DNA of 64,000 nucleotides from a virus (lineage: Duplodnaviria > Caudoviricetes): positions 64,001 to 128,000 of IMG/VR virus record IMGVR_UViG_3300015607_000582, one strand, 5' to 3'. The translations under genes and the position numbers were made by a program. Below the pieces are notes generated by a model. The model was not told where the DNA came from, made no database searches, and was given only the letters and a program-made list of their open reading frames with translations. How positions within the stretch are numbered: the first letter of the stretch is position 1; every line of letters begins with the position of its first letter. Of this stretch, positions 9,198 through 39,587 are shown piece by piece.

Positions 9198-9373
9198 GCC
9201 GCGTTCGCCTCCTCGCTGACGGCGTCCAGTGTCTCTCGCGCGCTGCGGTTGACGAAGCCACTGACGAGGCAGGCCACGGCGGCCACCGCGCAGGCCCCCT
9301 CGTCAGTCAGCGGGCCGGGCTGCGTCGTCACCTCGCACCACGTCGTGGGCGGCTCTCCCTCGAAGACGTCCAT
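9194..9373 (-). CDS. Hypothetical protein
   Basis: MDVFEGEPP..., TGATG coupling. Confidence 0.45.
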   Translation of the reverse strand: MDVFEGEPPTTWCEVTTQPGPLTDEGACAVAAVACLVSGFVNRSARETLDAVSEEANAA

Positions 9374-9870
9374 CAGTCGACCAGCTTGAGGTAGATGATG
9401 TTCTCGCTGCCGAGCCGCGTCTCGTTGTACGAGCCCGAGGCGCGGAACCCATAGTGCTCGACGAACCGGCGCGCACGCTCGTTGCCCGCGTGAACGTGGC
9501 ACTTGATGTAGTCCACGTTGAACGCCTCGACGACACCGAGGCGGTACTCCATCAGCCGAGACCCGTACGAGTGCCCAGACGAGTTGACGTACAGGTTCCC
9601 GAAGTAGGCGATGCTGTCGTCGCCGTCGTCCTTGAGCGTCAGCCCCGCCATGCCCCGCACCTCTCCGCCGTCCTCGACAACGTACAGGGCGTGGGGTGAG
9701 CGCAGGTGCTGCTTGATGTACTCGGGCGTCGCGAAGCGATCCTGCCACGCGGCGACCTGATCGAGCGTGTGACCCAGTCGCGTCAGCAGGATGGTCGACA
9801 CCTCTCGCTTGAGCTGCAGCAGCAGCTCGGCGTCAGCCGACTTCGCCTTGCGGATGCGGATGTCACTCAT
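9373..9870 (-). CDS. GNAT family acetyltransferase
   Basis: IRKA...D, LYV...GHSYGSRLM, VHAGNERARRFVEHYGF. Confidence 0.82.
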   Translation of the reverse strand: MSDIRIRKAKSADAELLLQLKREVSTILLTRLGHTLDQVAAWQDRFATPEYIKQHLRSPHALYVVEDGGEVRGMAGLTLKDDGDDSIAYFGNLYVNSSGHSYGSRLMEYRLGVVEAFNVDYIKCHVHAGNERARRFVEHYGFRASGSYNETRLGSENIIYLKLVD

Positions 9871-17726: not shown

Positions 17727-20700
17727 CTACTGCTTGGGCCTGAAGGGGTCACCCGCCGCGCTCAGCGCAGCGATGTCGTCGTAGTTGACCCACCCGGTGG
17801 CGTAGTGCGGATGGAGCTTGCCGACATCGTTGAGCGGGATGTGGACGAGCACCATCTTCATGAACGGCTCGATGTCGACCACCTCGCCCCGGCGTCCGGG
17901 CTGCAGATCCGCATACTGGTCGCGCCACTCGGGTGCGCCATTCGGGCCGCTGTCGGCGTTGACGCGCTGCTGCAGCTCCGGGTGCCACCCAAGGTCGAGC
18001 GTCCGGTAGATGGGCAGACCGTCCTGCGACTCGCCGATGGGCTGCGCGCCCGGAATCGGGATCTTGCCCCCGCGCACCTCCAGCGTCACGGGCTTGCGGA
18101 GCTGGAAGATGGCCTTCTGGTTGCTCTTGCGCGACATGGCGTACCACGCCTCGACATCCTGCTCCGCCCCGAAGTGGAACTCGGAGCGACGCAGGGCCGT
18201 GACCGAGGCGAGCACCGCCACCTTGATGCGCTCGTAGCGGTACGGGTCGCCCGCCATCTTCCTGACCTGCGCCTCGTAGTGCTCATGCGCGAAGCAGACC
18301 GGCACCTCGTCCCCTCCGCCGAACCGCATGATCGTCTTGGCGGGCTCGCCGCAGTGACGACACACGGGGGCCGCGACCTTCGAGTACAGGTGCGCCGGGT
18401 GGGTCGGAGACCAAGCGATGGCGTTGGCTGGAGCGCCCGGCTCGTCCACCCGCCGAGCACTGGGCTCGATGAGCGGCTGCTGGGGGCGCGGCCCCTCGGG
18501 GTGCTCAGACAGGTTGTGCTCGGGCACCCACCGCTGGCCCTTGGACGTGTCGTCGTAGCGAACCTCGTACTGCCAGTACGAGCCGACCGCGTGGGCCGAG
18601 CCATTGTTCGTCGGATCGAGCCACCTGCGCTCGACGACCACTCCGGGCTCGCGCAGGTAGCCCACGTAGGTGTGCGCGCCGACCTCGAACTTGGGCGGCG
18701 TGGTCAGGTGCGACAGCGGCACCTGCATGTGCTTCACGCCCGGCAGGGTGGCCGCCGCAGGGGCGACTGCATTCCCGAGCGGATAGTCGGAGGCGGGTCG
18801 GCCATTGACGGCAGGGAAGTTGACCAAGAACGGGTTGTGCGGATCCTGCTCGACGCCCTCCAGCGGCTCCTCGCCCCACCTGCGATGTCGGACGTCAGTC
18901 AGGTTCGACTTGAGCAGCTCGAAGCCGTGCAGGATGCTGTTGTAGAATCGTTCGAGGTGCGTGCCGGTGTCGAACTGCTGGTTGTTCTGCTCGCGGGCAT
19001 GGGCACTGACACTCCGCACCGCACCGGCAGCGACGTTCAGCTCGCCGACGATGCGCGTGGCGATCCGGATCAGCTCCGGTCGAAGCGGATCGCCGCGCTC
19101 GTCGGTCGGGGACGTCAGGAAGCGACGCTGCAGATTGCGGGCCATCTCCTCAAGCGAGCCCGCCGTACCGTCGGGATTGCTGAAGCCCCAGTTGCGACCG
19201 CCGTGAGCCTCCATGTTGCAGCCCGCCGTGGCGAGAGCCGCGATGGCCTGAGACAGCTCGTCCTCGTCGTAGTTGACGCCCCAACTCGACTCCTCGGTGC
19301 CACTCAGTTCAAGGATGTGCTCGACCAGCTCCTCCTCGACCTTCTCCCAGTCGATCTCATCGACGTAGTGCGCTTCTTGGTAGTCGCGCGTCTCGCCGTC
19401 GTCGTCGTACTCGTACTCGCTGCTGGCGGTGAAGCGGTCGAAGTCGTCCTTGAAGTCGATGGCGTCGTCGAGGTCGGTGATGCTGAACGACTCGCCGTCG
19501 TGCCAGTAGTCGCCGTAGTGCTCGCGCCGCTCCTCCAGCCGCCGCTCCTCGTCGTAGCCGAACTCGTGATGGTCGTAGGCGGCGCTGTCGTTCTCCTCTG
19601 ATCGGTCGACGGTGATGTCGTACTTGGCGGCGACGTCGTTGTAGAAGCGCACCATGATGTCGGAGACAGGGTTCTTGCCGGAGCGTTCGACGCTGCGCTC
19701 GTCGAGCGGCTGGTTGTCGTTGGCGCGCACCTCCAGCGGCACCCACTCGTTCGCGTAGGGAAAGCCGCCACGCCTCCCGCGCAGACCGATGAACAGCGAC
19801 GCGAGCGGTCGACCCGACTGACTCCGCAGGCCGACGGCGATCTGGTTGCCGTCGTAGATCGGCGCACGGTACTGCTCGCCGTATGAGCTGTCAGAATCGG
19901 CGTAGCAGTGGCTGAGCATCTCACCATGGCGCTCCATGGAGTCGCTGTCGTTCGGGTCGAGGACGACCGCGTAGTTGCCCTTCTTGTCCTCCCAGACCTT
20001 CTTGTCCTCGTCGTCCCAGTAGATCGAGTTCGTCTCGGGGTCGAGGCCGATGCTCTCCAGCTCCCCCACCCACGAGCGCAAGCTGGAGAAGTCATCGCCC
20101 TTGGGGTCGAAGCCGCCTCCGCCAACCTCGCGGTCGCCGTACATCCGCTGCCACTCGATGAAGGGGATCGCGTTGTCGAGCGTCGAGAGGTCGTAGCTGT
20201 TGACGGGGTTGAGGCGCTTGGCCTTCACCTCCTCGGCGATCCACGGGTAGATGGTCGCTGCCTCGGGATCCAGACCCTCGATGAGCTGGGAGATGACCTG
20301 CAAGTTCGTCAGCCCGGCACCCTCGCCGTCGTACTCGCTGCCGCGCTTGACCATCTTCGGCGGCTTCGACCACCCCTCGACACGGAGCTGCGCGATCCAG
20401 TAGGCGTCGCCGATGATCTCCCTGATCTCCTCGGTCAGGGGAACCTTGCGCTCCTGTCCGTCGCCGAGATCGAGGAACAGCTCATCCGAGAGCGGGATCG
20501 CGCGCAGGCTGTGGCGGACTTTGCTGACACGCCAGAGGTTGCCGGGGGAGATGGTGAAGTGGGCGTCGTTGTCCCAGCCCTCATCGGAGTCTGGCTGGAC
20601 GCCCGCCTCGCGCATGATCGCATCGAAGAGCTTGACGTACTCGCCGCCCCATCGACGCCAGATGAACTCGGGCGACGTGTTGCGCACGACGTCGCCCTCC

Positions 20701-20951
20701 ATGATCCGACGCGGGTCGAACGGCTCCTTGGCCCACTTCTGGGGCTCAAGCTGCTTGAGCAGCGACTCGCGCTTGCGCTCCGCGTACTCGGGGTCGACCG
20801 CCGCCGTGCGACGAAGACCAGACGCCAGCGAGCGCATGACGTAGTCGTGAACCGGGTTGGTTCGATGCACCTCGCCGCAGTGGGGGCACGGGCGCTCGTC
20901 GTCGCCACCGATCCAGTTGGCGAGCGTGCCTTCGCTCCATCCGTCGATCAT
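17727..20951 (-). CDS. Polyvalent multidomain protein C (Zn ribbon, PcfJ-like, SH3-like, Zn finger)
   Basis: CPHC; GEMLSHCY...LRS..GRPLASL...EVRANDNQ; FEVG..YEVRYDD..WVPEHNL; CRHC..C..H. Confidence 0.7.
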   Translation of the reverse strand: MIDGWSEGTLANWIGGDDERPCPHCGEVHRTNPVHDYVMRSLASGLRRTAAVDPEYAERKRESLLKQLEPQKWAKEPFDPRRIMEGDVVRNTSPEFIWRRWGGEYVKLFDAIMREAGVQPDSDEGWDNDAHFTISPGNLWRVSKVRHSLRAIPLSDELFLDLGDGQERKVPLTEEIREIIGDAYWIAQLRVEGWSKPPKMVKRGSEYDGEGAGLTNLQVISQLIEGLDPEAATIYPWIAEEVKAKRLNPVNSYDLSTLDNAIPFIEWQRMYGDREVGGGGFDPKGDDFSSLRSWVGELESIGLDPETNSIYWDDEDKKVWEDKKGNYAVVLDPNDSDSMERHGEMLSHCYADSDSSYGEQYRAPIYDGNQIAVGLRSQSGRPLASLFIGLRGRRGGFPYANEWVPLEVRANDNQPLDERSVERSGKNPVSDIMVRFYNDVAAKYDITVDRSEENDSAAYDHHEFGYDEERRLEERREHYGDYWHDGESFSITDLDDAIDFKDDFDRFTASSEYEYDDDGETRDYQEAHYVDEIDWEKVEEELVEHILELSGTEESSWGVNYDEDELSQAIAALATAGCNMEAHGGRNWGFSNPDGTAGSLEEMARNLQRRFLTSPTDERGDPLRPELIRIATRIVGELNVAAGAVRSVSAHAREQNNQQFDTGTHLERFYNSILHGFELLKSNLTDVRHRRWGEEPLEGVEQDPHNPFLVNFPAVNGRPASDYPLGNAVAPAAATLPGVKHMQVPLSHLTTPPKFEVGAHTYVGYLREPGVVVERRWLDPTNNGSAHAVGSYWQYEVRYDDTSKGQRWVPEHNLSEHPEGPRPQQPLIEPSARRVDEPGAPANAIAWSPTHPAHLYSKVAAPVCRHCGEPAKTIMRFGGGDEVPVCFAHEHYEAQVRKMAGDPYRYERIKVAVLASVTALRRSEFHFGAEQDVEAWYAMSRKSNQKAIFQLRKPVTLEVRGGKIPIPGAQPIGESQDGLPIYRTLDLGWHPELQQRVNADSGPNGAPEWRDQYADLQPGRRGEVVDIEPFMKMVLVHIPLNDVGKLHPHYATGWVNYDDIAALSAAGDPFRPKQ

Positions 20952-23900
20952 CGCCAGTTCTCCTCGAAGTTGCTCATGTCAGTCGACCGCTCAGCGATCA
21001 GGTTGTCAGGGCCGACCCATCCCTCGTGACCGTCATCAAACTGGACGTGGTAGACGGTGCCACCCTCGAAGAGGCCGTCGGGCTCATGCTTGACCTCGAT
21101 CACCCGGCCCGGCTTGTCGATGACCTCCGGCCAGTCGGGGATCTTGGCACGGGCATCTGGATGCGTGACGAGGCGGTAGATGACGCGATCTCCGCCCTTG
21201 AAGCGGTAGTCCGTCGCGCGCAGCTCCTCGGGCACCTCGTGGATGCGGCGGTTGTACTCGGCTCGATGAAGTTCGGTCCACGCCTGCCGCTCGTCCTCGT
21301 CCATCTCGCCATCAAGGTAGCGGCGGTTCTGCTCGGCCATGAAATCATCGACTCTGCCGTCGGCACGCCAGTAGTCTTCGTACTCGTCGCCCACAGACGA
21401 GTACGTGCCGGGGAACTGGGTCGGGTTGCCGGGGTTCTCCCAGCCGGGCGGGTTCGCGCCGGGGATCGACGTCGGGTTGGTCGGCGGCACCGGCTGACCG
21501 CCGGGCGGCGCGGTGATGTCGAACAGCTTGAACTGGCCGGGGCCGGGGCCCTTCTTGCGCTGCGGCGGGGTGAACGGGTTCGCCGGGCGCGGCGCGATGG
21601 GGCCGGGCGGCGGGCCCGCAGGCTGCGCTGGCATCTGCTGCTCGATCTGCTCGCGCATGTCCGGCAGCGAGATGATCGGCGGCTTGTCGTCGGGGCTGAA
21701 CGAGCGCGGGAGCTTGTCGAGATCGAGGCCGAGGTCGGCCCGCTGCTCGTCCATGCCGGGAATCTGGCCCTTGTTGCGCTCGAACAGCTCGTCCTCCGAG
21801 AACGGGGTGACGCGCTGGCCCGGCGCGGGCTTGAAGGCGGGGTCGAGCGCCTTCAGCTCCTCGATGCCTTCGAGCGGATGCGACTTGCTCGCCCAGTACA
21901 GCGCCCGGACGTGAGAGCACGGGCGGCCCTCCAGCCGCTTCCACTTGCGAGTGCGCCCCCACGCATACTGCGACCACTTGCAACCGCAGTGCCACATGTC
22001 GATGCTGGACGACCTCGGGTCAGTCGACTCGATCTCGACCTCGTAGTCGCCATGGTCGCCGATGACATGGCCCTGCGTGAGGATGCCGGGCTTGGTGGGG
22101 TGAATGCCGTGGTAGTTGACGGTGACCTTGCCATCGCGAATCAGGCGCATGGACTTCTGCATGGTGTTCTCGGCCACCACGAGGCGCATCCCGAGCCCGA
22201 GCCCCGCGACCTTCGCGATGTGCTCCCCGGTCAGCTTCTCGATTGCGGGATGGAGCCCCGCGTTGGCGATGGCCTTGTACGCCACGTTGGCGTCGCTGAA
22301 GTCTCCGAGCCCGGCGCGCTGTGCCTCCTGCCGCGACTTGTGGAGCTGGTGCCAGAACTCGCGTGCCGCATCGGGCGCGTACATGAGCAGCAGCTTCATC
22401 TTGTCGACGACCATCTCGGCGTAGGCGCGCAGCGAGGGGCGCACCTCCTTCGCCATCGACTTGTCCGGCGGCACGATCCACTCGCGCTTGTCGAGGTCGT
22501 AGCCCGAGCGCAGGCCGGGCTTGTACAGGTCCTCGCGGCGGATGTCAGCCGGAACCACGTACGCCTGCAGCGGGATGTCAGTTCCCGGCAGCTTGGTGCC
22601 GTCGACGCTGCCGACCATCACCTTGACGAGGTCGGCCCGAACCCAGTCGGGCATCCGGGCGGCGTCGACGAAGAGGCTGACGTCGAAGTCGGACGGGCCG
22701 GTGTCATCGTACTGGTACGTCGTCAGCGAGCCGGTCAGGACGAGCGACAGGTACTGGTCGGGGTCAGGCCATCCGGCGGCGACCATGGCGTCGGTGATGG
22801 TCTTGCGGACGAAGTCGATGATCTCGGGCTTGACGTCAGGGGTCGCCGACGACGGGTTGTCGAAGACGTGCGAGCTGAGCTGGTCGCGCACCGGGTCGAG
22901 GATGTTCGCAGTGCGCCGCTGGCGCAGGTGCGGGTAGTCGTCAAGGATCGCCTCGTCAATCGCATCGAGGTCAATACCTCGCTGAAGCGCATCCTTGACG
23001 AAATCCTCGTGCGTCCAGAGCCACGACTTGTCTGGCACGACGCCCGATACGCTGCCGACATCCTCGGCTTCGTTCTGGTACCAATACCCAGTGTCGTCCC
23101 ACCCCTCGTTGATGGCGTGGTTCGCGTATGCGTCGCCCGAACCTCCGTGCCAGTCCCCCATGTCCCCGCCGTTGAACGGATACCCCATCTCGTGAGCGTC
23201 CGCCATATCGTCTTCTCGATGGGGAGAGACACGAACGGGGATGAAGGTCGGCTTGGTGTGCCAGTCCTTGGGCCCCTTGTGCCATGTGTCCGCAGTCTCT
23301 GCGCGCAGCGCATCGAGCGGCTCGTGCGGCTGCCACTTGAGGCTGCTGGCATTGCCGCCAGCGAGATTCGCAGTCATCGCTTCGTACGCCGCCTTCTGCG
23401 TGCCGAAGTGGATGACGCCGTCCCCCATCTCCCCGGCCGGGGTCGCGTGCCAAAGCGTGTCGGGGTGACGCTCGAACTCCCACTTGGTCATCTCATGGGG
23501 CTCGCGCTCATCATGGCGAAGGCTGCCCGAGCCGGGCTCTACACGATGCTCCCAGTCCTCCCAGAGCGCGTGCGCCTCGGCGATCATGCGCTCGGTCTCG
23601 TGGTACGGGTCGATCAGGTCGCCCGTGGCGAGTGACACGAGTACGCGGTCGCGGTCGACCGACGCGAGATGGCGCTCGGCGGTCTCGAAGCCGATCATCG
23701 CCACGCGCACGAGCGCGCCCGGCCCGCAGTGACGGGTGACGACCTCGCGCACGGTGTCGGGCTCGACGCCTTCGACGGCGATGTGGAGGTCGCCGGGCTG
23801 CATGGGCCGTCGCTGGACGACGTCGCGGACGGTCTCGCCTGCGACGTAGACGGTGCCGTACTCCAGCAGCTCCTGCGCGGGCTCCCAGAGCGGATCGCAG

Positions 23901-24226
23901 GCGAGGAGCTTGATGCACTTGGCCGCGATGTTCGACGACGCGAGGCGGTACCGCTCCTCGCCGACCAGCCGGTAGATGTGCTTGATCTCCAGCTCCGGGT
24001 GCATGGTGTACCAGAGCCGCGTCAGGTGGAACACCGTCCACGGCATGTCCGTGTCCGTGCGGATCTGCAGATTGCCCTTCGGGTCGTAGACGCCTTCGAC
24101 GATGCCGCCGGGGTTGAACTTACCGGAGATGTCTGCGTGCCGCTCGCCGGGCTGGCCGACGTAGACGCGGTCGCCCTCGATGTCGTAGATCATCGGGATG
24201 GGGCCATGCAGCTCGACGTCAGGCAT
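20948..24226 (-). CDS. Polyvalent multidomain protein B (degenerate PAP/CCA head, ART-like, Pol-beta nucleotidyltransferase, SWIM, SH3-like)
   Basis: VYVAGETVRD..DLHIAV; LWHAT..IHFGT..YQNEAEDVGSVS; LTGSL..SDFDV; CGC..CSH; FKGGDRV..VQFDDG. Confidence 0.72.
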   Translation of the reverse strand: MPDVELHGPIPMIYDIEGDRVYVGQPGERHADISGKFNPGGIVEGVYDPKGNLQIRTDTDMPWTVFHLTRLWYTMHPELEIKHIYRLVGEERYRLASSNIAAKCIKLLACDPLWEPAQELLEYGTVYVAGETVRDVVQRRPMQPGDLHIAVEGVEPDTVREVVTRHCGPGALVRVAMIGFETAERHLASVDRDRVLVSLATGDLIDPYHETERMIAEAHALWEDWEHRVEPGSGSLRHDEREPHEMTKWEFERHPDTLWHATPAGEMGDGVIHFGTQKAAYEAMTANLAGGNASSLKWQPHEPLDALRAETADTWHKGPKDWHTKPTFIPVRVSPHREDDMADAHEMGYPFNGGDMGDWHGGSGDAYANHAINEGWDDTGYWYQNEAEDVGSVSGVVPDKSWLWTHEDFVKDALQRGIDLDAIDEAILDDYPHLRQRRTANILDPVRDQLSSHVFDNPSSATPDVKPEIIDFVRKTITDAMVAAGWPDPDQYLSLVLTGSLTTYQYDDTGPSDFDVSLFVDAARMPDWVRADLVKVMVGSVDGTKLPGTDIPLQAYVVPADIRREDLYKPGLRSGYDLDKREWIVPPDKSMAKEVRPSLRAYAEMVVDKMKLLLMYAPDAAREFWHQLHKSRQEAQRAGLGDFSDANVAYKAIANAGLHPAIEKLTGEHIAKVAGLGLGMRLVVAENTMQKSMRLIRDGKVTVNYHGIHPTKPGILTQGHVIGDHGDYEVEIESTDPRSSSIDMWHCGCKWSQYAWGRTRKWKRLEGRPCSHVRALYWASKSHPLEGIEELKALDPAFKPAPGQRVTPFSEDELFERNKGQIPGMDEQRADLGLDLDKLPRSFSPDDKPPIISLPDMREQIEQQMPAQPAGPPPGPIAPRPANPFTPPQRKKGPGPGQFKLFDITAPPGGQPVPPTNPTSIPGANPPGWENPGNPTQFPGTYSSVGDEYEDYWRADGRVDDFMAEQNRRYLDGEMDEDERQAWTELHRAEYNRRIHEVPEELRATDYRFKGGDRVIYRLVTHPDARAKIPDWPEVIDKPGRVIEVKHEPDGLFEGGTVYHVQFDDGHEGWVGPDNLIAERSTDMSNFEENWR

Positions 24227-27158
24227 GGGGCTCTCCGTTCAGTCCGATGTGCGATGGCGGGAACAGCTCGGGCGGGCGCGGGTCGCCCCACACGTCGCGC
24301 TCAGGGCCGACGTAGTCGCCAACGTGGACTGCCGGTCGGCCGATCTTGTCGCGGAACTCCGCCATCGGCCCCATCCTGCGCACGACGGTGACGGGAACGT
24401 GCGTGTGGCCGAGGCTCTCTGCCATCTCAAGGCGGTGGTGGCCCTCGCCGAGGTAGGCATGGCCGTCGGCAGCACTCCACTCCAGCATGAGCGGCTGGTT
24501 GATGCCGTGCTCGGCGATGTGGTCGCGGAGGCGCGCGAAGCTGACATCGTCGTTGATCCTGTCGCCTCCCGTCCGGTCGAACTCCGCGAACCGCCTGACT
24601 TCGGAGATCGGCATCATCTCGGCGAACTGCATCTGCCATCCCGGCTTCTCGCTGTACTGCTGCCACTTCGGGGTCTCGCCACGGTCGATGGACGACCAGT
24701 CGGGCTCCTGCGCCCATGGCGCGGCCGTCTTCGGCCGTCGGATGCGCTCCGGAAGCTGGCTCCCGTACTGCTCGCGCCAGTCGCCATGATCCCAGTCGGT
24801 GACGTAGCTCGGGTGGATGGGGCCACGGTGCGTCATGCCCGCATCGTGGGGCACACGCGGCTCGTCGTGCCAATCCTCCTCGGGAGGGTAGGGGTCGGCG
24901 TAGTTGCGCAGGCTCTCGTGGAGATCCTCGGGCAGGTGCGGCCAGAGCCGAATCGCCTCGGGGATGCGAACCCGATCCTTGCTCGATCCGGGCAGCTCCT
25001 CCGGCGGCACCTCGCCGTGCTGTGTGACCGCGTCCCAGATGTCATGCGTGGGGTCGTACCACTCATCCCATCCGTGCGTGCCGCGCTCCAGCTCGTGAGG
25101 CTCGTAGTCGTCCTCCTCCTGCGCGACCTGCTTCCACTCGTCGCGCTCGTCCTCTGGGCGGCGCGTGTGGTGGAGGATGTCCGCGAAGTGCTCGGGGTCG
25201 CCCTGAATGCGGCTGGGGTCGAGGCCCTGCATCTTGACGATGACGGGGTCGTTGAGCTTGTTGTTGATCGCCATGGTGCCCGCCCACTGCGCCGCCGTCT
25301 CGTAGTGCGGGAACACGTAGACGTGATCGGTCAGGCGCGGCACCCACTCGACCGTGTGCGAGGGATCCTGCTGGAACCTCGCGGGCAGGATGCCGCTCTG
25401 CTGGATGACCGGCAGGTTGGAGCGATCCGTGACGTGGTACCACTCGTCGTTGAACCGACCCATGCCGACTGCAGTCCAGCCCGCGACGACGCCGAGCTGA
25501 TCCTGCTTGCGCTGGTAGTCGACGAAGTTGTTGGGGAAGGTGGCGTCCATGTTGACGTAGGGGTCGACCTCGCTCGGCAGCGGGTCGGCTCGCGTGTGCT
25601 CGGCGACAGTGTGCTCGCGCCATGCCCCGTAGTCGGGGAAGTGCTCGCCGCACTCGGAGCACTCGTACGCACCGCCGTTGGGCTCGCCCTCGTCGGGGCC
25701 GTCGATGCTCCATCCGGGCGGCGGCATCTGGTCGAACTGGTCGGTGCCCGCCCACTCCTTGTTGCGCCAGTCCTTGACGCCGGGGTTGTTGGGGCCGACG
25801 CCGAAGCCTGCGGCAGTCGTCTGCGACCACGCGACGGCGTCCGGGGACATGTGGCCCCAGTCGTGCTCGACGGCCCCGAAGACGCGACGTGCCTCTTCGA
25901 GCAGGGCGGAGGCGACGCCCGTCCGACGGTACTCGGGCTCAACCTGCACTCCGCCGATGACCCACTGCCCCTGATCGCCCTTCGCGACCGACAGGATGCC
26001 CACGGCCGTCTGCCCCGAGTAGGCGATGAAGTGGTTGAGGGTCTGCTTGATGGCGAAGGACGGCGGCAGCGGCATGGCCGTACGAACGCGACCCTCGACC
26101 TGTCGCATGCGGAAGTTGTAGAGCACCTCGTTGAACGAGCTGTCGATCAGCCACGCGAGCGGGTCTTCGACCTCGGTGACCGTGTAGTCGACCCCGTTGA
26201 GGCGGTAGACGCGGCCGACCTGCGGCACGCCCTCGCTGTCTGGCGTCACCTGCGCGGCGGGGGCGGCCGGGTTGATCGGCTGCACGCCCTCGCCACGGCA
26301 GTTGCAGTCGCCGCGCTCGCACTTGCGGAGCTGCGCCTTGGCGTTCCGGTCGCTACGGTAGTCGCTCGGCGTCGCGGCGACGTTGACCTTGTGCCCATTC
26401 TGCACGAAGCGGAAGTGGCCGCCCGGCAGCGGTACCAGCTCCCACCCGGCCTTCGTGGCCTCGGGGAATCGCTGGAGGATCTTGCGGTTGGCTACGCGCT
26501 CTCGCGGAAGGCGGCGCTCTTGACCTGAGCCTCGCGCAGGCTCTCCGGCGTCGGCTGCCAGCCATCCGTCACGCCGCACGACGGGCAGGGGAAGGTCTCG
26601 CCCTCCCGGTGCGCCACCCGATGCCCGCAGCTCTGGCACGGACGCCTCCAATGACCGCTCGCCGTCTGCACGACGGTCGGGTCGCCCTTCTCGAACTTCT
26701 GCATGGATGGCTTCATGGTCACTCCTCAGTGTGCCCGTTTTCTCCAGATGAGGCAACCCCTGCTCGTCGATCAGCCCCTTGTAGTTCCATCCGTAGGTCT
26801 TGGCGGCCTTCTTGAGCGCCTTCTCGACGATGTCCAGCTTCATGTTGCTCGACAGCAGCTCGAACTCGGCGTCCCAGCGGTCGAACAGGTGCAGGATCCC
26901 CTTGGCGTGGGGCCGTGAGAAGTGCGAATGGCTCGCCATCTCCAGCATGAGCTGGTGATCTGCGGTCGGGTGGATCAACACCTGATCCTTGCCCACGACG
27001 ACCCAGTTGTAGGGCGTCGGCTCGTGGCTGGGCTCGACCCGCGTGTAGTCAGGGCGAGGAGCGAGCGGCTGAACCTTGGGGCGGGCGTCGTTGGCCGCCT
27101 GCGGCTCCTCGGCGGGGTAGGCATCGCTACCGGAGGTGTCAGAGGTTCGGTGCGTCAT
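24219..27158 (-). CDS. Polyvalent multidomain protein A (HicA-like, GNAT, C2H2, ART-like, ParB-like)
   Basis: GGHFRF..ATPSD.R; VQVEPEYRRTGVASALL; CSEC..F..H..H; YHVT..I.QSGI.P; GINQPL..EGHHRL..VPV. Confidence 0.72.
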   Translation of the reverse strand: MTHRTSDTSGSDAYPAEEPQAANDARPKVQPLAPRPDYTRVEPSHEPTPYNWVVVGKDQVLIHPTADHQLMLEMASHSHFSRPHAKGILHLFDRWDAEFELLSSNMKLDIVEKALKKAAKTYGWNYKGLIDEQGLPHLEKTGTLRSDHEAIHAEVREGRPDRRADGERSLEASVPELRASGGAPGGRDLPLPVVRRDGWLAADAGEPARGSGQERRLPRERVANRKILQRFPEATKAGWELVPLPGGHFRFVQNGHKVNVAATPSDYRSDRNAKAQLRKCERGDCNCRGEGVQPINPAAPAAQVTPDSEGVPQVGRVYRLNGVDYTVTEVEDPLAWLIDSSFNEVLYNFRMRQVEGRVRTAMPLPPSFAIKQTLNHFIAYSGQTAVGILSVAKGDQGQWVIGGVQVEPEYRRTGVASALLEEARRVFGAVEHDWGHMSPDAVAWSQTTAAGFGVGPNNPGVKDWRNKEWAGTDQFDQMPPPGWSIDGPDEGEPNGGAYECSECGEHFPDYGAWREHTVAEHTRADPLPSEVDPYVNMDATFPNNFVDYQRKQDQLGVVAGWTAVGMGRFNDEWYHVTDRSNLPVIQQSGILPARFQQDPSHTVEWVPRLTDHVYVFPHYETAAQWAGTMAINNKLNDPVIVKMQGLDPSRIQGDPEHFADILHHTRRPEDERDEWKQVAQEEDDYEPHELERGTHGWDEWYDPTHDIWDAVTQHGEVPPEELPGSSKDRVRIPEAIRLWPHLPEDLHESLRNYADPYPPEEDWHDEPRVPHDAGMTHRGPIHPSYVTDWDHGDWREQYGSQLPERIRRPKTAAPWAQEPDWSSIDRGETPKWQQYSEKPGWQMQFAEMMPISEVRRFAEFDRTGGDRINDDVSFARLRDHIAEHGINQPLMLEWSAADGHAYLGEGHHRLEMAESLGHTHVPVTVVRRMGPMAEFRDKIGRPAVHVGDYVGPERDVWGDPRPPELFPPSHIGLNGEPHA
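26492..26716 (-). CDS. Zn-ribbon protein nested in an alternative frame of polyvalent protein A
   Basis: GAGGAG RBS, ATG 26716, strongly GC3-biased codons, CQSC...CPSC. Confidence 0.7.
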   Translation of the reverse strand: MKPSMQKFEKGDPTVVQTASGHWRRPCQSCGHRVAHREGETFPCPSCGVTDGWQPTPESLREAQVKSAAFRESA

Positions 27159-27164
27159 GAGGCT

Positions 27165-27176
27165 TCGACGATTAGG
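27165..27176 (-). promoter_or_regulatory. Class III motif variant
   Basis: CCTAA-TCG-TCGA just upstream of polyvalent protein A. Confidence 0.45.
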
Positions 27177-27309
27177 TGTGAGCCCACGACAGGCACTGCG
27201 CGGTCCCCTGCGCCCGAGGCGGCCACGCTGGCCGAAGAGGTCGCGCCCCGGACACAGGGAACCCGCAGTACGAGACCTCGATCACCTCCGCCATCGGACG
27301 ACAACCTCT

Positions 27310-27321
27310 TCATGGATTAGG
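27310..27321 (-). promoter_or_regulatory. Class III motif variant
   Basis: CCTAA-TCC-ATGA, intergenic. Confidence 0.5.
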
Positions 27322-32390: not shown

Positions 32391-34670
32391 CTACTCCATG
32401 TTCCGGCGGAAGGCGGGCGGCACCTTGTCGATCACCACGCGACTGCTCCGGCGCATGTCCCACTTCAACTCCGGCTCGTCGGCTGCCACGACGGTGCGCT
32501 TCGACGATTCCTTGATGCGTCGCGACCGCTTGCTCAGCTCGATCTCGATCATGGTCTCCTTGAGCCCCGCCAGTCGCCTGTCCACTTCCTCCGGATCCAG
32601 CTCGGCAAAGCTGGCTCCGACTGGCTTCGGCATACCGGGGCGACGCTCGTCGCTGATCGGCGGCCTTGCCCCCATGTTGCCTGCACCGCCGGACGAACCT
32701 CCGGGGATGGGCGGAGCCCCGCCCGGAGGAGTGCCCAGTCCCGGCGGAGGGGGCGGCATCACGATGCCGCCGGGCAGACCGCCCGCCATGTCGCCGCCGG
32801 GAGGCGGGCCGCCCACCATGCCGCCGCCCATGTCGCCGCCGGGCGGCGGGCCGCCCATGCCACCCGGAGCACCGGGCCCCATCGCGGGTGCGTTCGTGCT
32901 CTCGACCTCGGCCTTGAGGTCGGGCGGAATCGGCAGGCCCTGCGTCTGCAGGATCTTGTACGTCTGGAGCTTCGCCTGCTGCTGGGCGACGGTCTTCTGG
33001 ATCATCTCCTCGGACAGCTCATCGAGCGTGTCCTTGAAGTCGAAGCCGACGTTGACCATGAGGCGGTTGTCACTGATCGGGGCACCCATGGCGCGCAGGG
33101 TCTGGAGGAACTGTCGCTCCGTCGCCTCGTCGCGCATGTTGAAGTTCTCGAACTGCAGGTCGATGTCGAGGAGCTTGTGCTTCTCGACGATGTAGGGATC
33201 GCCGTCATCGTCGTACTCGATCACTTCCTCCATGATCGGCACGCGGGTCTGGCCCCGCTTCTCGTAGTCGTAGTGGCCCTGCGCCTCGGCGACCACCTGA
33301 GCCCGCTCGGTGAAGAACCGCTTCAGGTAGTTCTGGTAGGTCTTCATCTGCTGGTTCATGAACTCCGCCTGCAGGGCGGAGCTGGCGTACGGCTGCGCGT
33401 TCGAGCCACTGGAAAGCAGCGACGGGTTGATGCCGAAGCCCTGCATGATGCGGCGCTCGATGCGGTCGAAGTCGTTGCCGAGATCCGGCACCTGCTCGCG
33501 GCCGAAGACGTTCTGGACGTCGAGCGCGTGATGGTAGACGAGCAGGCGGAAGTCGCTGGCGAGCGCGATGTCCATGTCGTCGCGGAAGCTGTCGAGCTGG
33601 TCGGGCGTCGGCAGCCACCCCTCCTGCCCGGCGATCATGTCGCTCGTGCCGAGCTTGGCGAGGATGAGCGGCGAGTACAGGCGCTCTGCGATGGCGTCCT
33701 GCGACGCCAGCAGCTTCTCCTCGTGGAGCAGCGTGCGCAGGATGCCGAGCATGATCGGCGTACCGTGATCGTCCCAGTCCGTGTGCGTCGTCGCGATGTG
33801 CTTGAGCATCACGTCGGACACGGGGAACGGCTCGCCGCGCAGGGCGTACGGGATCAGGTGCTCGTAGTTGATCTGGAGCTGCTTGTACTCGTCGGACGGC
33901 GACTTCGTCTGCGCGAGGCGGCGCAGGGATTCGGGCAGGTGAACCTTGAGCTGCTGGGTGCCCATGAGCGGGAACCGCTCGATGACGATGTTCTCGGGGT
34001 TGAGCAGCTCTTCGCGCTCCCACACGCCGAGGCTCTCGTTGAACGAGCCGAGCGGGAACGCCTCGCCGACCGTGAACACCTCGCGGCCGATCTTGTAGAG
34101 GAACTCCTCGTAGTTCAGCTTGTCGAGGAACTCCTCCTCGTAGAACTGCGTGACCTTGCGATCCTGACACTCGATGCGCAGCCCGGCCAGCGGGAATCGC
34201 GAGTAGATTTCCACGAGCTGCTTGACGAGGTAGTGCGTCGAGTAGTACAGGCGCATCCACTTGTGCAGCTTGTGGCGATGCCCCTCGTCGGCCATGTTCC
34301 ACGGCAGGCCGGAGAGATCCCAGTATTCCATGGGGTCGTAGAAGCGCGGCAGGGCGGCCATGACGTCGGAGCCCATCGACCCGATCTTCTGCATGCCCAT
34401 CGACGCGCTGGCGTTCCGGTGACGCCGCATCGCCGAGATGACCTCGGCGTTCTTCTGGAGATCGCGCACCTCGGGGCTCGAAGCCGTCCGCTCGAAGTGC
34501 GACCGGACGTCGGCCTGAAGCTGCCCCGGCGTCTTCACCATGGAGGCGTAGTCGTTCGCCGCCGCCATCCGGGCCTTGTAGTTGCGCGGGAGCGAGACCC
34601 CCTGCGCCTGCAGGCTCTGCAGCTCGCGTGCAAGGTCTCGCGGAACCTTCTTGCGCTTTCCGTCACTCAT
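32391..34670 (-). CDS. Portal protein
   Basis: Size, position near terminase; PRFYDP, YSRFP, GEAFP, LLNPE, G.PI patterns; Pro/Gly-rich C-terminus. Confidence 0.75.
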   Translation of the reverse strand: MSDGKRKKVPRDLARELQSLQAQGVSLPRNYKARMAAANDYASMVKTPGQLQADVRSHFERTASSPEVRDLQKNAEVISAMRRHRNASASMGMQKIGSMGSDVMAALPRFYDPMEYWDLSGLPWNMADEGHRHKLHKWMRLYYSTHYLVKQLVEIYSRFPLAGLRIECQDRKVTQFYEEEFLDKLNYEEFLYKIGREVFTVGEAFPLGSFNESLGVWEREELLNPENIVIERFPLMGTQQLKVHLPESLRRLAQTKSPSDEYKQLQINYEHLIPYALRGEPFPVSDVMLKHIATTHTDWDDHGTPIMLGILRTLLHEEKLLASQDAIAERLYSPLILAKLGTSDMIAGQEGWLPTPDQLDSFRDDMDIALASDFRLLVYHHALDVQNVFGREQVPDLGNDFDRIERRIMQGFGINPSLLSSGSNAQPYASSALQAEFMNQQMKTYQNYLKRFFTERAQVVAEAQGHYDYEKRGQTRVPIMEEVIEYDDDGDPYIVEKHKLLDIDLQFENFNMRDEATERQFLQTLRAMGAPISDNRLMVNVGFDFKDTLDELSEEMIQKTVAQQQAKLQTYKILQTQGLPIPPDLKAEVESTNAPAMGPGAPGGMGGPPPGGDMGGGMVGGPPPGGDMAGGLPGGIVMPPPPPGLGTPPGGAPPIPGGSSGGAGNMGARPPISDERRPGMPKPVGASFAELDPEEVDRRLAGLKETMIEIELSKRSRRIKESSKRTVVAADEPELKWDMRRSSRVVIDKVPPAFRRNME

Positions 34671-39210: not shown

Positions 39211-39587
39211 CGCGCAGGCGGCTCGATGGCCCGAATCACTCGCCGGACGTCCTTGTCCTCGTTGCGGTCGACCGCGCGCCGCACCTCGTGGTACTGGCGC
39301 TCGTGGTCGAACCCGTGCTTGTTGTACTCGTGGCCCGGCACGCGACCAACCACCTCGATGGTGGCGGGGCCGATGCCGAGCAGGCACTCGGTCGTGTGGA
39401 CGCGGACGACGTAGCCGATCTTGTACGCCTCGTCCTGAGCGCGCTTCGCCATCTCGCCGACGTGCAGGTGATCGTTCGGCTTCTTGGAGTAGCGACGCAT
39501 CAGCTCCCGCCACATGGTGGCGATGCGCTTGACGTCCTCGTCGTGCATGTCGGCAGAGGTGATCCCCTGCTCGGCGTACTCGGTCAT
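39207..39587 (-). CDS. Hypothetical protein
   Basis: Coupled to terL. Confidence 0.6.
   Translation of the reverse strand: MTEYAEQGITSADMHDEDVKRIATMWRELMRRYSKKPNDHLHVGEMAKRAQDEAYKIGYVVRVHTTECLLGIGPATIEVVGRVPGHEYNKHGFDHERQYHEVRRAVDRNEDKDVRRVIRAIEPPAR

What the first reader, a model, noticed from the sequence alone, without database searches (positions are those of the whole stretch)
17727..27158. 9.4 kb operon of three polyvalent proteins: a probable packaged and injected host-modification arsenal
Seen: three coupled ~1000-aa ORFs downstream of class III motifs, built from unrelated modules. A: HicA-like (about 26490-26300), GNAT (26075-25815), C2H2 (25670-25600), ART-like (25445-24805), ParB-like (24620-24385). 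B: PAP/CCA-like remnant, second ART-like (23460-23020), Pol-beta NTase (22910-22220), SWIM, SH3. C: Zn ribbon, PcfJ-like (19990-19700), SH3, Zn finger. Established: polyvalent proteins of phages and conjugative elements combine ART, GNAT, ParB, NTase and PcfJ domains and are proposed to be delivered with the DNA; T4 Alt is an injected ART. Inference: late-made internal head cargo that ADP-ribosylates, acetylates, nucleotidylates and cleaves host targets on entry.
Basis: partly seen in the sequence, partly recalled or inferred. Interest (0 to 1): 0.85.

Follow-up and report, generated by a model that had tools for sequence, protein, structure and literature searches.

The report
Split polyvalent enzyme toolkit of phage
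Three back-to-back giant genes of an uncultured actinophage-like virus encode mosaic "polyvalent" proteins that string acetyl-, ADP-ribosyl- and nucleotidyl-transferase-like units on shared scaffold blocks; this is a new split variant of a known class of phage conflict proteins, and whether they travel inside the virus particle is still unproven.

Summary
The three ORFs are real: 979, 1092 and 1074 aa on the minus strand, overlapping by 8 and 4 nt, with in-frame GC3 of 0.87-0.89. The "second ART" in B failed every test.

New points:
- Single giant proteins of related phages fuse parts of A, B and C, so the trio is one split system.
- Modules swap at conserved borders.
- Relatives carry a full CCA-adding enzyme with HD, or a 2H phosphoesterase, on the same scaffold.
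- A Zn-ribbon module inside A sits out of frame.
- A covarying leader hairpin lies between two CTAA-N4-YG motifs upstream of A.
- C ends in a widespread unnamed domain.

The operon lies 5 kb downstream of the portal gene but between nucleotide-metabolism genes. Packaging is untested; I put it at about 0.4.

Verdict: a new variant of the polyvalent-protein class (Iyer et al. 2017), probably aimed at nucleic-acid ends. The scan has noted comparable CCA/GNAT/ParB polyvalent proteins on other DNA.

The parts
27311..27320 (-). Distal CTAA-N4-YG promoter-like motif
   Evidence: Conserved at the same place in relative L012.
27180..27275 (-). Leader hairpin between the two motifs, about 34 bp stem
   Evidence: MFE -87 kcal/mol, z -3.2. 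11 of 34 pairs show compensatory changes across 4 lineages. It is the most stable upstream fold of all 32 motif sites.
27166..27175 (-). Proximal CTAA-N4-YG motif, 7 nt before the ATG of A
   Evidence: Conserved upstream of A in L012 and L002.
24219..27158 (-). Gene A (979 aa)
26733..27056 (-). A residues 35-142: conserved non-catalytic N-block
   Evidence: 74-80% identical in orthologs. Also found at the N-terminus of the CCA-fusion proteins.
26492..26716 (-). 74-aa Zn-ribbon ORF nested out of frame in A, with AGGAG-N6-ATG
   Evidence: GC3 is 0.85-0.93 in its own frame and 0.53-0.68 in A's frame. Sequence. The homologous module is in frame in the L012 ortholog.
26322..26546 (-). A residues 205-279: HicA-like module
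   Evidence: phrog_2089 E 7.9e-9. PADLOC HicA-like E 3.7e-4. Pfam HicA_toxin gives no hit.
25815..26078 (-). A residues 361-448: GNAT acetyltransferase
   Evidence: Pfam PF00583 E 2.8e-6, above its cut-off. RRTGVA acetyl-CoA motif read.
25479..25811 (-). A residues 450-560: conserved central block with C2H2 zinc finger
   Evidence: A recombination breakpoint against L011 falls at its upstream edge, 25813/25814.
24720..25463 (-). A residues 566-813: ART-like (H-Y-E) module with an acidic, Trp-rich tail
   Evidence: Invariant WYHVT..R..L..I...G, Y and DPE. Atlas leads to Arr, DarT, PARP and Tpt1. PDB profile hits to Tpt1 and DarT at E 0.06-1.2. 59% identical to the N-terminus of the B ortholog P0010.
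24324..24665 (-). A residues 832-945: ParB/Srx-like domain
   Evidence: phrog_26387 E 7.5e-6. PDB profile top hits are ParB, Noc and Spo0J, best E 0.014. Ortholog P0006 reaches the Pfam ParB_N cut-off.
20948..24226 (-). Gene B (1092 aa)
23939..24220 (-). B residues 3-96: conserved beta-rich N-block
   Evidence: 56% identical to the block that precedes the CCA enzyme in P0013.
23573..23941 (-). B residues 96-218: CCA-adding-enzyme head fold, catalytically degenerate
   Evidence: Z 10.5, rmsd 2.5 A, 107 residues aligned to 1miv. pLDDT 82-96. GG and DxD are lost in B, P0010, P0011 and P0012 but kept in 15 CCA-fusion homologs.
22919..23569 (-).
   Evidence: 72% identical to the C-terminus of P0012. 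Alignment. No support for ART. pLDDT below 50.
22202..22918 (-). B residues 437-675: MNT/ANT-like Pol-beta nucleotidyltransferase with a helical C-terminal half
   Evidence: Z 6.0-6.4 to HI0073 and MNT antitoxins. The TGSLTTYQ...SDFDVS motif is kept in 24 homologs. In other phages it is fused to CCA enzyme, 2H, PcfJ or a methyltransferase. BFVD matches at E 3e-10.
21857..22171 (-). B residues 686-790: beta domain plus SWIM zinc finger
   Evidence: Pfam E 0.021 in B. Ortholog P0011 scores 21.8 bits against a cut-off of 19.6. CxC...CxH is invariant. phrog_2940 and phrog_30974.
20972..21214 (-). B residues 1005-1085: small beta-barrel, SH3-like, unverified
   Evidence: Four strands at pLDDT 55-72. 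The homologous part of P0010 gives DUF1918 at E 0.002.
17727..20951 (-). Gene C (1074 aa)
19467..20345 (-). C residues 203-495: PcfJ-like domain with a G-E-x-L-x-H-C motif
   Evidence: The Pfam HMM itself does not hit C.
17733..18206 (-). C residues 916-1073: unnamed conserved C-terminal domain
   Evidence: About 40 cluster representatives, almost always C-terminal. Partners carry SWIM, GNAT or CCA enzyme. Alignment. No PDB relative.

Best explanation
A-B-C is one split polyvalent-protein system of an uncultured 143-kb high-GC myovirus that is distantly related to cluster-C-type actinophages.

Shown:
- The three genes are translationally coupled.
- They sit behind their own conserved promoter-like motif pair and leader hairpin.
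- Each protein alternates conserved non-catalytic blocks with exchangeable enzyme cassettes.
- Related phages encode single proteins that join parts of A, B and C.

Inferred:
- The three proteins work as one multi-enzyme toolkit aimed mainly at nucleic-acid ends, with RNA or tRNA the most likely target.
- The always-intact MNT-like nucleotidyltransferase is the core activity. It sits next to a dead CCA-adding head that I take to be a retained binding module.
- The core is surrounded by a GNAT, an NAD-dependent Tpt1/DarT-like transferase, a ParB/Srx NTPase-nuclease, a HicA-like RNA-binding unit and a PcfJ-like His-Cys domain.
- The purpose would be to counter host RNA/DNA-directed toxins and defences, or to reprogram the host.

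Delivery is open. I put about 0.4 on loading into the capsid and injection, and otherwise on action in the producing cell.
For: - ORFs, coupling and codon bias.
- Domain evidence.
- Rosetta-stone fusions. P0062 (1567 aa) carries the A N-block, the A central block, the B N-block, a full CCA enzyme, the B NTase-SWIM region and the C C-terminal domain. P0067 (1997 aa) joins the A GNAT and ParB, the B SH3-like part and the C N-region. L004 fuses B and C into 1897 aa.
- Cassette exchange. The ART-like module of A lies at the N-terminus of the B ortholog in L012. Different modules occupy the same slots in different orthologs. Identity to L011 is about 100% down to position 25814 and collapses exactly at a module border.
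- RNA-end theme. 14 of 25 homologs of the NTase module also carry PolyA_pol + HD + tRNA_NucTran2_2, 3 carry 2H/LigT, 1 carries PcfJ and 1 a methyltransferase. The same toolkit is described for jumbo phages (PMC7824862).
- Own transcription signals.
- The class and its domain repertoire (ART, GNAT, Pol-beta NTase, ParB, 2H) are described in PMC5512222.
Against: - None of the hub Pfam families of polyvalent proteins hits the genome: ART-PolyVal and ddrB-ParB give nothing at E<=10.
- Support for the ART-like, HicA-like and ParB-like modules is sub-threshold or indirect.
- About half of the residues have no assigned fold. The model of A is unusable (pLDDT 35.7), and B is confident only at 100-225 and 445-670.
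- The phage encodes no tRNA, and its own CCA head is dead, so 'tRNA repair' as such does not apply here.
- RlaP does not match the NTase.
- No substrate or activity has been measured for any module.
Confidence: 0.6

Rival explanations
1. The proteins are made late, loaded into the prohead, cut by the prohead protease at [KR]-[TV]-A sites into free enzymes, and injected with the DNA to modify host targets on entry.
For: - The CTAA-N4-YG motif pair upstream of A belongs to a class enriched in the virion blocks: 23 of 32 copies lie in 46% of the genome (p 0.003), and none lies in the 24-kb small-gene block (p 0.003).
- The portal gene is 5 kb upstream and the terminase 10 kb upstream on the same strand, and relatives keep this synteny.
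- [KR][TV]A occurs 9 times in A+B+C against 3.1 expected (p 0.005). Eight of the nine copies lie at module borders. The motif is also enriched in the protease-fusion protein (7 against 1.4) and in the 1133-aa head-region protein (4 against 1.0), but not in tail proteins or replication enzymes.
- The sites before the NTase and near the N-terminus of C are conserved as [KR]-T-[AS] in distant homologs.
- Precedents are P1 DdrB/DarB and T4 Alt (PMC5512222).
Against: - The immediate neighbours on both sides are nucleotide-metabolism genes.
- Nine motif copies precede non-virion genes.
- There is no MuF, portal-fusion or other known packaging domain.
- The conserved [KR]-T-[AS] may simply be part of the fold of those domains.
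- One of the nine motif copies lies inside a confidently folded strand of the CCA head.
- No homolog exists in a cultured phage with virion proteomics; tblastn of B and C finds nothing.
Confidence: 0.4
2. A cytoplasmic, non-packaged RNA-end repair and antitoxin hub, expressed with the nucleotide-metabolism genes. The NTase neutralises HEPN-type or other toxins, or mends RNA 3' ends. The Tpt1-like unit handles 2'-phosphate or 5'-phosphate ends. The GNAT and HicA-like units bind or modify RNA.
For: - The flanking genes are UDG, HD, dNMP kinase, ThyX, RNase H, TK, ligase and RNR.
- Relatives carry a full CCA enzyme with HD, or 2H, on the same scaffold.
- The NTase is closest in fold to MNT antitoxins and HI0073.
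- The ART-like unit is closest to Tpt1 and DarT.
- The RNA-repair toolkit of large phages is described in PMC7824862.
Against: - The CCA head is inactive in this lineage.
- No tRNA genes.
- I did not search the genome for an RNA ligase or a kinase-phosphatase.
- The promoter-like motif is shared with virion genes.
Confidence: 0.4
3. An evolutionary scrapyard. The genes are largely decaying mosaics of captured modules with little present function.
For: - The CCA head is dead.
- The Zn-ribbon module is out of frame within A.
- Architectures are highly variable, with A orthologs from 836 to 1951 aa.
Against: - In-frame GC3 stays at 0.85-1.0 along 9 kb.
- No stops occur in about 3,100 codons.
- The catalytic signatures of the GNAT, the NTase, the ART-like H-Y-E, the ParB arginine loop and the PcfJ H-C are kept.
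- The scaffold blocks are 60-80% identical across lineages.
Confidence: 0.07
4. Structural virion components, such as internal head or tail-associated scaffolds, whose enzyme-like domains are vestigial.
For: Large size, long Pro-rich linkers, small beta-barrels and an always-C-terminal domain. The motif is shared with virion genes.
Against: No PHROG structural family hits. Catalytic motifs are conserved. The nearest relatives are enzymes.
Confidence: 0.05

Closest known systems
Polyvalent proteins of phages and conjugative elements (Iyer, Burroughs, Anand, de Souza, Aravind 2017, PMC5512222)
   Same: Giant phage proteins that string several conflict-type catalytic domains (ART, GNAT, Pol-beta NTase, ParB-like, 2H in relatives) into one polypeptide, with rampant domain shuffling between relatives.
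   Different: - Split over three coupled genes.
- The hub families ART-PolyVal, ddrB-ParB, MPTase and MuF are not detected.
- Built on conserved non-catalytic blocks with exchangeable slots.
- Contains a dead CCA-enzyme head, an undescribed NTase family, a PcfJ-like domain and an unnamed C-terminal domain.
- Not adjacent to head genes other than the portal gene 5 kb away.
Packaged phage effectors: T4 Alt and P1 DarB/DdrB
   Same: Enzymes proposed or shown to enter the host with the DNA. ART and ParB-like chemistry is represented.
   Different: The ART-like unit of A is H-Y-E and Tpt1/DarT-like, not R-S-E like Alt. There is no sequence relation to DarB or DdrB. There is no evidence of packaging.
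RNA-repair toolkits of large phages: CCA-adding enzyme, RlaP NTase, KptA/Tpt1 ART, 2H, HD (PMC7824862; Burroughs & Aravind 2016 as cited there)
   Same: The same enzyme families appear in this protein family: a full CCA enzyme with HD, or 2H, in relatives, and a Tpt1-like unit plus an NTase here.
   Different: They are fused into polyvalent scaffolds instead of being separate genes next to RNA ligases. The CCA head is inactivated here. The NTase is not RlaP.
MNT (MntA) antitoxins of HEPN-MNT modules, and aminoglycoside nucleotidyltransferases
   Same: Minimal Pol-beta NTase fold with G-S...D-x-D, Z 6.0-6.4.
   Different: 240-aa module with its own helical C-terminal half. No HEPN partner. Embedded in a 1092-aa protein. 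Substrate unknown.
Cluster C mycobacteriophage ~500-aa 'ParB-like nuclease domain' proteins (for example Blubba gene 73)
   Same: Weak tblastn similarity over the GNAT and ParB-like parts of A (E about 1e-5, 35% identity). The gene lies a few kb upstream of the portal gene.
   Different: Half the size and a single gene. No B or C counterparts in those phages.

Membership tests
Polyvalent proteins (Iyer et al. 2017) | Several unrelated domains, including more than one conflict-type catalytic domain, in one polypeptide of a phage or conjugative element | tested here: met
   A has GNAT, ART-like, ParB-like and HicA-like units. B has a CCA head, an NTase and SWIM. C has a PcfJ-like domain. The record is a viral contig.
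Polyvalent proteins (Iyer et al. 2017) | Mosaic shuffling of the same domains among relatives | tested here: met
Polyvalent proteins (Iyer et al. 2017) | Presence of the class's hub domains (ART-PolyVal, DdrB-like ParB, MPTase, MuF, ArdC-N) | tested here: not met
   PF18760 and PF18763 give no hit at E<=10 in the whole genome. Pfam scans of A, B and C show none of the others. The ParB-like domain here is nearer to ParB_N.
Polyvalent proteins (Iyer et al. 2017) | Delivery with the DNA (virion packaging), or a neighbourhood of virion genes | tested here: inconclusive
   The portal gene is 5 kb upstream and the motif is shared with virion genes. The flanks are nucleotide-metabolism genes. Packaging itself cannot be tested with these tools.
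Class II CCA-adding enzyme / poly(A) polymerase (PF01743) | Head-domain fold | tested here: met
   Z 10.5, rmsd 2.5 A, 22% identity to 1miv over B 102-217.
Class II CCA-adding enzyme / poly(A) polymerase (PF01743) | GG...RD...DxD catalytic motif, and neck, body and tail domains | tested here: not met
   GG is replaced by AG, and DxD is reduced to a single Asp (B reads P-G-D-L-H). There is no Pfam PolyA_pol, RNA-binding or HD hit in B. So this is a remnant, not a member in function.
Pol-beta superfamily minimal NTase (MNT/ANT-like) | Fold plus G[SG]-x(9-13)-DxD | tested here: met
   Z 6.0-6.4 to 1no5, 2rff and 8xeo. GS and DFD are invariant in 24 homologs. The Z values are middling, so the sequence motif carries the call.
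RlaP NTase (PF10127) | Match to the family model | tested here: not met
   No hit at E<=10.
GNAT (PF00583) | Family model above its cut-off and the acetyl-CoA motif R/Q-x-x-G-x-G/A | tested here: met
   28.1 bits against 20.7. RRTGVA read.
ART superfamily, H-Y-E clade (Tpt1/KptA, DarT, Arr) | Conserved H, Y and E motifs | tested here: met
   Invariant H14, Y53 and E95 of alignment A3 in four copies of the module.
ART superfamily, H-Y-E clade (Tpt1/KptA, DarT, Arr) | Significant profile or fold match | tested here: inconclusive
   In the PDB profile search, 8 of 11 hits are Tpt1 or DarT, but at E 0.06-1.2. Atlas feature score is 0.90 and TM 0.33-0.44 to Arr, DarT and Tpt1. The Pfam DarT and Arr models give no hit. 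The AF2 model is unusable.
ART-PolyVal (PF18760), for B 255-402 | Match to the family model, or relation to another ART | tested here: inconclusive
   No Pfam hit. Atlas score 0.76-0.78, which is noise level. hhalign against the ART-like module of A gives probability 0.3%. The region is unmodelled.
ParB/Srx N-terminal domain | Profile match and the conserved G-x-x-R loop | tested here: met
   phrog_26387 E 7.5e-6. PDB profile top hits are ParB, Noc and Spo0J, E 0.014-0.12. Ortholog P0006 scores 26.3 bits, equal to the cut-off. E-G-[HN]-H-R is conserved. PF02195 does not hit A itself.
PcfJ (PF14284) | Relation to bona fide PcfJ domains and the H-C motif | tested here: met
   The Pfam HMM misses C. 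A 7-sequence profile of C 200-500 hits only the two Pfam-PcfJ proteins among 82 sequences, at E 1.6e-5 and 1.2e-4, or 1.8e-7 after intein removal. The motif G-[DE]-x-[LM]-x-H-C is shared. The E-values refer to a small database.
HicA (PF07927) | Family model match | tested here: inconclusive
   No Pfam hit. PADLOC HicA-like E 3.7e-4 over 34 positions. The helix, three strands, helix order appears in a low-confidence model.
SWIM zinc finger (PF04434) | CxCxnCxH and a family model match | tested here: met
   B scores E 0.021, below the cut-off. Ortholog P0011 scores 21.8 bits against 19.6. C62, C64, C85 and H87 are invariant.

The most novel reading that the evidence does not exclude
The catalytically dead CCA-adding head of B, together with the conserved scaffold blocks, acts as a reader of tRNA or RNA 3' ends. 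It tethers the live NTase, the Tpt1/DarT-like NAD-transferase and the GNAT to host or phage RNA. The three-protein assembly is loaded into the capsid through the conserved C-terminal domain and released by prohead-protease cuts at [KR]-[TV]-A. In short, it would be a packaged, protease-armed, RNA-end-directed counter-defence machine whose enzyme cassettes are swapped by recombination at fixed borders.
Probability: 0.15. Interest if true: 0.8.

Novelty: new variant of a known kind. Interest (0 to 1): 0.55.

Why it matters
Polyvalent proteins were predicted from sequence in 2017 and have hardly been studied since. This locus offers a tractable version of the class:
- a fixed scaffold with exchangeable slots;
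- natural split and fused forms that indicate which parts belong together;
- a pseudo-enzyme next to a conserved live NTase family that is common in uncultured phages but uncharacterised;
- a PcfJ-like domain whose H-C motif is marked as essential by an intein in a paralog;
- an unnamed domain that is always C-terminal.

If the modules act on RNA ends, they would show how actinophages answer the tRNA-directed toxins that are abundant in their hosts, such as the NTase, GNAT and RNase toxins of mycobacteria. If the proteins are packaged, they would define a new cargo-loading and processing system.

Tried and rejected
- megablast of the 9.4 kb and tblastn of B and C against 50,697 phage records found no match.
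- phmmer of A, B and C against PDB sequences found nothing meaningful.
- The single-sequence AF2 model of A was useless at pLDDT 35.7. One of the two structure jobs was therefore lost, and C was never folded.
- The Pfam models ART-PolyVal, HicA_toxin, DarT, Arr-ms, RlaP, ddrB-ParB and ParB_N gave no hit on the genome.
- NCBIfam gave nothing beyond GNAT.
- The C-terminal domain of C has no PDB relative by profile.
- BLASTP found no paralogy between A, B or C and the other giant proteins of the genome.
- Rfam found nothing in 17-28 kb. The sigma-70 promoter and intrinsic-terminator scans were uninformative.
- A PcfJ search on the relatives' records was not possible because those records are not held.
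- The idea that hairpins generally precede CTAA motifs is rejected. Only the one before A stands out.
Fifteen copies lie at 64-143 kb.
- The idea that the depletion of CTAA is special is rejected. It follows from the general rarity of TAA.
- The complex prediction of the B SWIM region with the C C-terminal domain returned no verdict. It is neither evidence for nor against binding.
- One mistyped family-search call returned an error.


Full report
WHAT IS THERE. The window is bases 64,001-128,000 of a 142,928-bp viral contig rated 96% complete. It is 66% GC, and almost all genes lie on the minus strand. All start with ATG. A/B overlap by 8 nt and B/C by 4 nt. Third-position GC is 0.87-0.89 in frame, and a sliding profile follows the three frames along the 9.4 kb. 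These are real, translationally coupled genes.

GENOME AND NEIGHBOURHOOD. The phage is a myovirus:
- tail sheath, phrog_2839, E 3e-55;
- baseplate, fibre and tape-measure-like genes at the right end;
- a head protease fusion protein.

Its portal protein (window 32391-34670, phrog_2833, E 2e-155) is 39-42% identical to portals of Rhodococcus phage E3, Gordonia phages and cluster C mycobacteriophages. The host is therefore probably an actinobacterium.

Reading along the minus strand, the gene order is:
- terminase (37192-39513);
- portal;
- a 420-aa gene;
- dNMP-kinase-like, HD-hydrolase-like and UDG genes;
- small ORFs including Zn ribbons;
- A, B, C;
- ThyX, RNase H, thymidine kinase, NAD-dependent ligase and RNR.

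Four related contigs keep this synteny. The operon is thus portal-proximal but embedded in nucleotide-metabolism genes, and its position does not decide when it is expressed.

MODULES OF A.
- GNAT at 370-425 is above the Pfam cut-off.
- The C2H2 finger scores E 1.7e-4, and its four ligands are invariant in four orthologs.
- The HicA-like call gains a PADLOC HicA-like hit (E 3.7e-4, residues 247-279) and a PHROG family. The Pfam HicA model is silent.
- The ART-like unit (566-813) keeps an invariant WYHVT..R..L..I...G motif, a Y motif and a DPE motif in four copies.
- A profile of that unit finds RNA 2'-phosphotransferases (Tpt1) and DarT as 8 of its 11 PDB hits, at E 0.06-1.2.
- The protein atlas returns Arr, DarT, PARP and Tpt1 clusters at score 0.90 and TM 0.33-0.44.
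- The Pfam DarT, Arr and ART-PolyVal models do not hit.
- I read the unit as an H-Y-E ART fold of the clade that acts on nucleic acids, with moderate confidence. It does not look like the R-S-E enzyme Alt.
- The ParB-like domain (832-945) is supported by phrog_26387 (E 7.5e-6), by a PDB profile search whose top hits are ParB, Noc and Spo0J (best E 0.014), and by ortholog P0006 reaching the Pfam cut-off.

MODULES OF B. An AlphaFold model built on 25 homologs is confident at residues 100-225 and 445-670.
- Residues 96-218 superpose on the head domain of class II CCA-adding enzymes (Z 10.5, rmsd 2.5 A, 22% identity to 1miv).
- The alignment shows that 15 homologs with a complete CCA enzyme keep GG...RD...DxD. 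B and its three closest orthologs have lost GG and one or both aspartates. B also lacks the neck, body, tail and HD parts.
- Residues 437-675 form a minimal Pol-beta nucleotidyltransferase (Z 6.0-6.4 to HI0073 and MNT antitoxins). Its TGSLTTYQ...SDFDVS motif is kept in 24 homologs.
- This 240-aa module is the most conserved part of the system. In other phage proteins it is fused to a CCA enzyme with HD (14 of 25 hits), to 2H/LigT phosphoesterases (3), to PcfJ (1) or to a methyltransferase (1).
- It has strong structural matches among uncharacterised proteins of uncultured phages (E down to 3e-10). It is not RlaP.
- SWIM is supported.
- Residues 220-436 are a real conserved module, 72% identical to the C-terminus of P0012. 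The ART assignment for it found no support.

MODULES OF C.
- The Pfam PcfJ model hits the genome only in a different protein of 1899 aa.
- In the 1899-aa protein the PcfJ domain is split by a Hint/LAGLIDADG intein inserted between the H and the C of its G-D-x-M-x-H-C motif.
- With the intein removed in silico, the match becomes one continuous hit at E 1.8e-7. C has the same motif as G-E-x-L-x-H-C. The PcfJ-like call therefore stands, and the intein marks the H-C dyad as functionally critical.
- The last 160 residues of C are an unnamed domain. About 40 cluster representatives carry it, nearly always at the C-terminus, behind SWIM, GNAT or CCA-enzyme parts. It has no PDB relative.

ONE SYSTEM, SPLIT. 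Pairwise comparisons show proteins in related phages that unite parts of all three genes.
- P0062 (1567 aa) carries the A N-block, the A central block, the B N-block, a complete CCA enzyme, the B NTase-to-SWIM region and the C C-terminal domain.
- P0067 (1997 aa) joins the A GNAT and ParB-like parts, the B C-terminal barrel and the C N-region.
- In L004, B and C are one 1897-aa ORF. In L002, C is only 403 aa. In L012, A is 1951 aa.

Conserved non-catalytic blocks are 55-80% identical across lineages: A 35-142, A 450-560 and B 3-96. The stretches between them hold different cassettes in different phages.

The ART-like unit of A is 59% identical to the N-terminus of the B ortholog in L012. Against the independent assembly L011, the window differs at one base from 27400 down to 25814. 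It then diverges abruptly, exactly at the GNAT/central-block border. That is a recombination joint at a module boundary.

AN OUT-OF-FRAME MODULE IN A. Between about 26,740 and 26,490 the codon bias leaves A's frame (GC3 0.53-0.68) for another frame (0.85-0.93).
- That frame holds a 74-aa CxxC...CxxC ORF with AGGAG 6 nt before its ATG.
- In the L012 ortholog a homologous Zn ribbon (37% identity, E 4e-4) is in frame, between the N-block and the HicA-like unit.
- The arrangement is identical in L011, so a sequencing error is unlikely.
- An 83-codon off-frame stretch stays open by chance in 29-46% of cases in this DNA.
- So the 979-aa frame is translatable but reads an Arg/Gly-rich bridge here. 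The Zn ribbon is either made separately or is decaying.

SIGNALS. CTAA-N4-YG occurs 32 times on the minus strand and never on the plus strand. Of the 39 CTAA words on the minus strand, 32 carry the extension (p about 4e-19). The rarity of CTAA itself only reflects the rarity of TAA.
- Twenty-three copies lie in the two virion blocks, which make up 46% of the genome (p 0.003).
- None lies in the 24-kb block of small genes (p 0.003).
- Nine lie in the replication/nucleotide block. Two of those are upstream of A, at 27320 and at 27175 (7 nt before the ATG).
- The pair is conserved in L012. In L002 the proximal copy abuts what is probably the true start of A.
- Between the two copies lies a hairpin of about 34 bp (-87 kcal/mol, z -3.2). 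Eleven of its pairs show compensatory changes across four lineages. No other motif copy has such a fold upstream.

The operon therefore has its own conserved control region. That the motif is a late promoter is inference only.

PACKAGING. In favour:
- the motif class;
- the nearby portal gene;
- the precedent of the protein class;
- [KR][TV]A, which occurs 9 times in A+B+C against 3.1 expected (p 0.005), with 8 copies at module borders;
- enrichment of the same motif in the protease-fusion protein (7 against 1.4) and in a 1133-aa head-region protein, but not in tail or replication proteins;
- conservation of two of the sites in distant homologs.

Against:
- the metabolic flanks;
- the absence of any known packaging domain;
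- the lack of any homolog in a phage with virion proteomics;
- the possibility that the conserved tripeptides simply belong to the domains.

I put packaging at about 0.4.

COMPARISON AND NOVELTY. The class is that of Iyer et al. 2017 (PMC5512222). Its repertoire includes ART, GNAT, Pol-beta NTase, ParB-like and 2H domains. Here the hub families of that class were tested and not found. The architecture is also new: a three-gene split, fixed scaffold blocks, a dead CCA head, a new NTase family, a PcfJ-like unit and a new C-terminal domain. The enzyme set overlaps the RNA-repair toolkit described for jumbo phages (PMC7824862). Earlier reports of this scan describe CCA/GNAT/ParB polyvalent proteins in other phages. 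I rate the finding a new variant of a known kind, with interest 0.55.

Noticed in passing
G000:C1:23217-28916 (-), outside the window (L008:3217-8916): A fourth giant protein (1899 aa) lies in the head-gene region. Its PcfJ domain is interrupted by a Hint + LAGLIDADG intein inserted between the H and the C of the conserved H-C motif. It begins directly after a CTAA-N4-YG motif. It is a better positional candidate for capsid cargo than A, B or C.
   Followed up: partly
window 26492-26716 (-): A 74-aa Zn-ribbon ORF with its own AGGAG-ATG is nested out of frame inside gene A. The homologous module is in frame in the L012 ortholog.
   Followed up: yes
whole genome; in the window at 1569, 6060, 14469, 27175, 27320, 29066, 37174, 40873, 47977, 49342, 54800, 57788, 58542 (-): CTAA-N4-YG occurs 32 times on the minus strand and 0 on the plus strand. 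It often lies 0-20 nt before a start codon, which fits leaderless or short-leader transcripts. It is absent from genome positions 41-65 kb.
   Followed up: partly
window 27180-27275 (-): A long hairpin with 11 covarying pairs lies between the two motif copies upstream of A. It could be a terminator without a U-tract, an RNase III site or an attenuator.
   Followed up: partly
window 32391-34670 and 37192-39513 (-): The portal and large terminase genes sit about 80 kb away from the head protease and capsid block, separated by replication and early genes. The tail genes at the two contig ends suggest a circularly permuted or circular map.
   Followed up: no
window 25813/25814: There is a sharp recombination joint against the independent assembly L011. 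Only one substitution separates them across 1.6 kb upstream, and dense divergence starts downstream, exactly at a module border.
   Followed up: yes
whole genome: AATT and TTAA are completely absent from the 143 kb. AATT is expected about 13 times and TTAA about 0.8 times from trinucleotide frequencies. CTAG is 3-fold depleted. This may reflect restriction avoidance.
   Followed up: no
window 9373-9870 (-): A separate stand-alone 165-aa GNAT gene lies in the same nucleotide-metabolism block (Pfam E 5e-10).
   Followed up: no
L015 (Mycobacterium phage Blubba) 8914-10428: Gene 73 of cluster C mycobacteriophages, annotated as a 'ParB-like nuclease domain' protein, has a GNAT motif followed by an ART-like 'VHFT' motif. 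It is the only cultured-phage relative of A.
   Followed up: no
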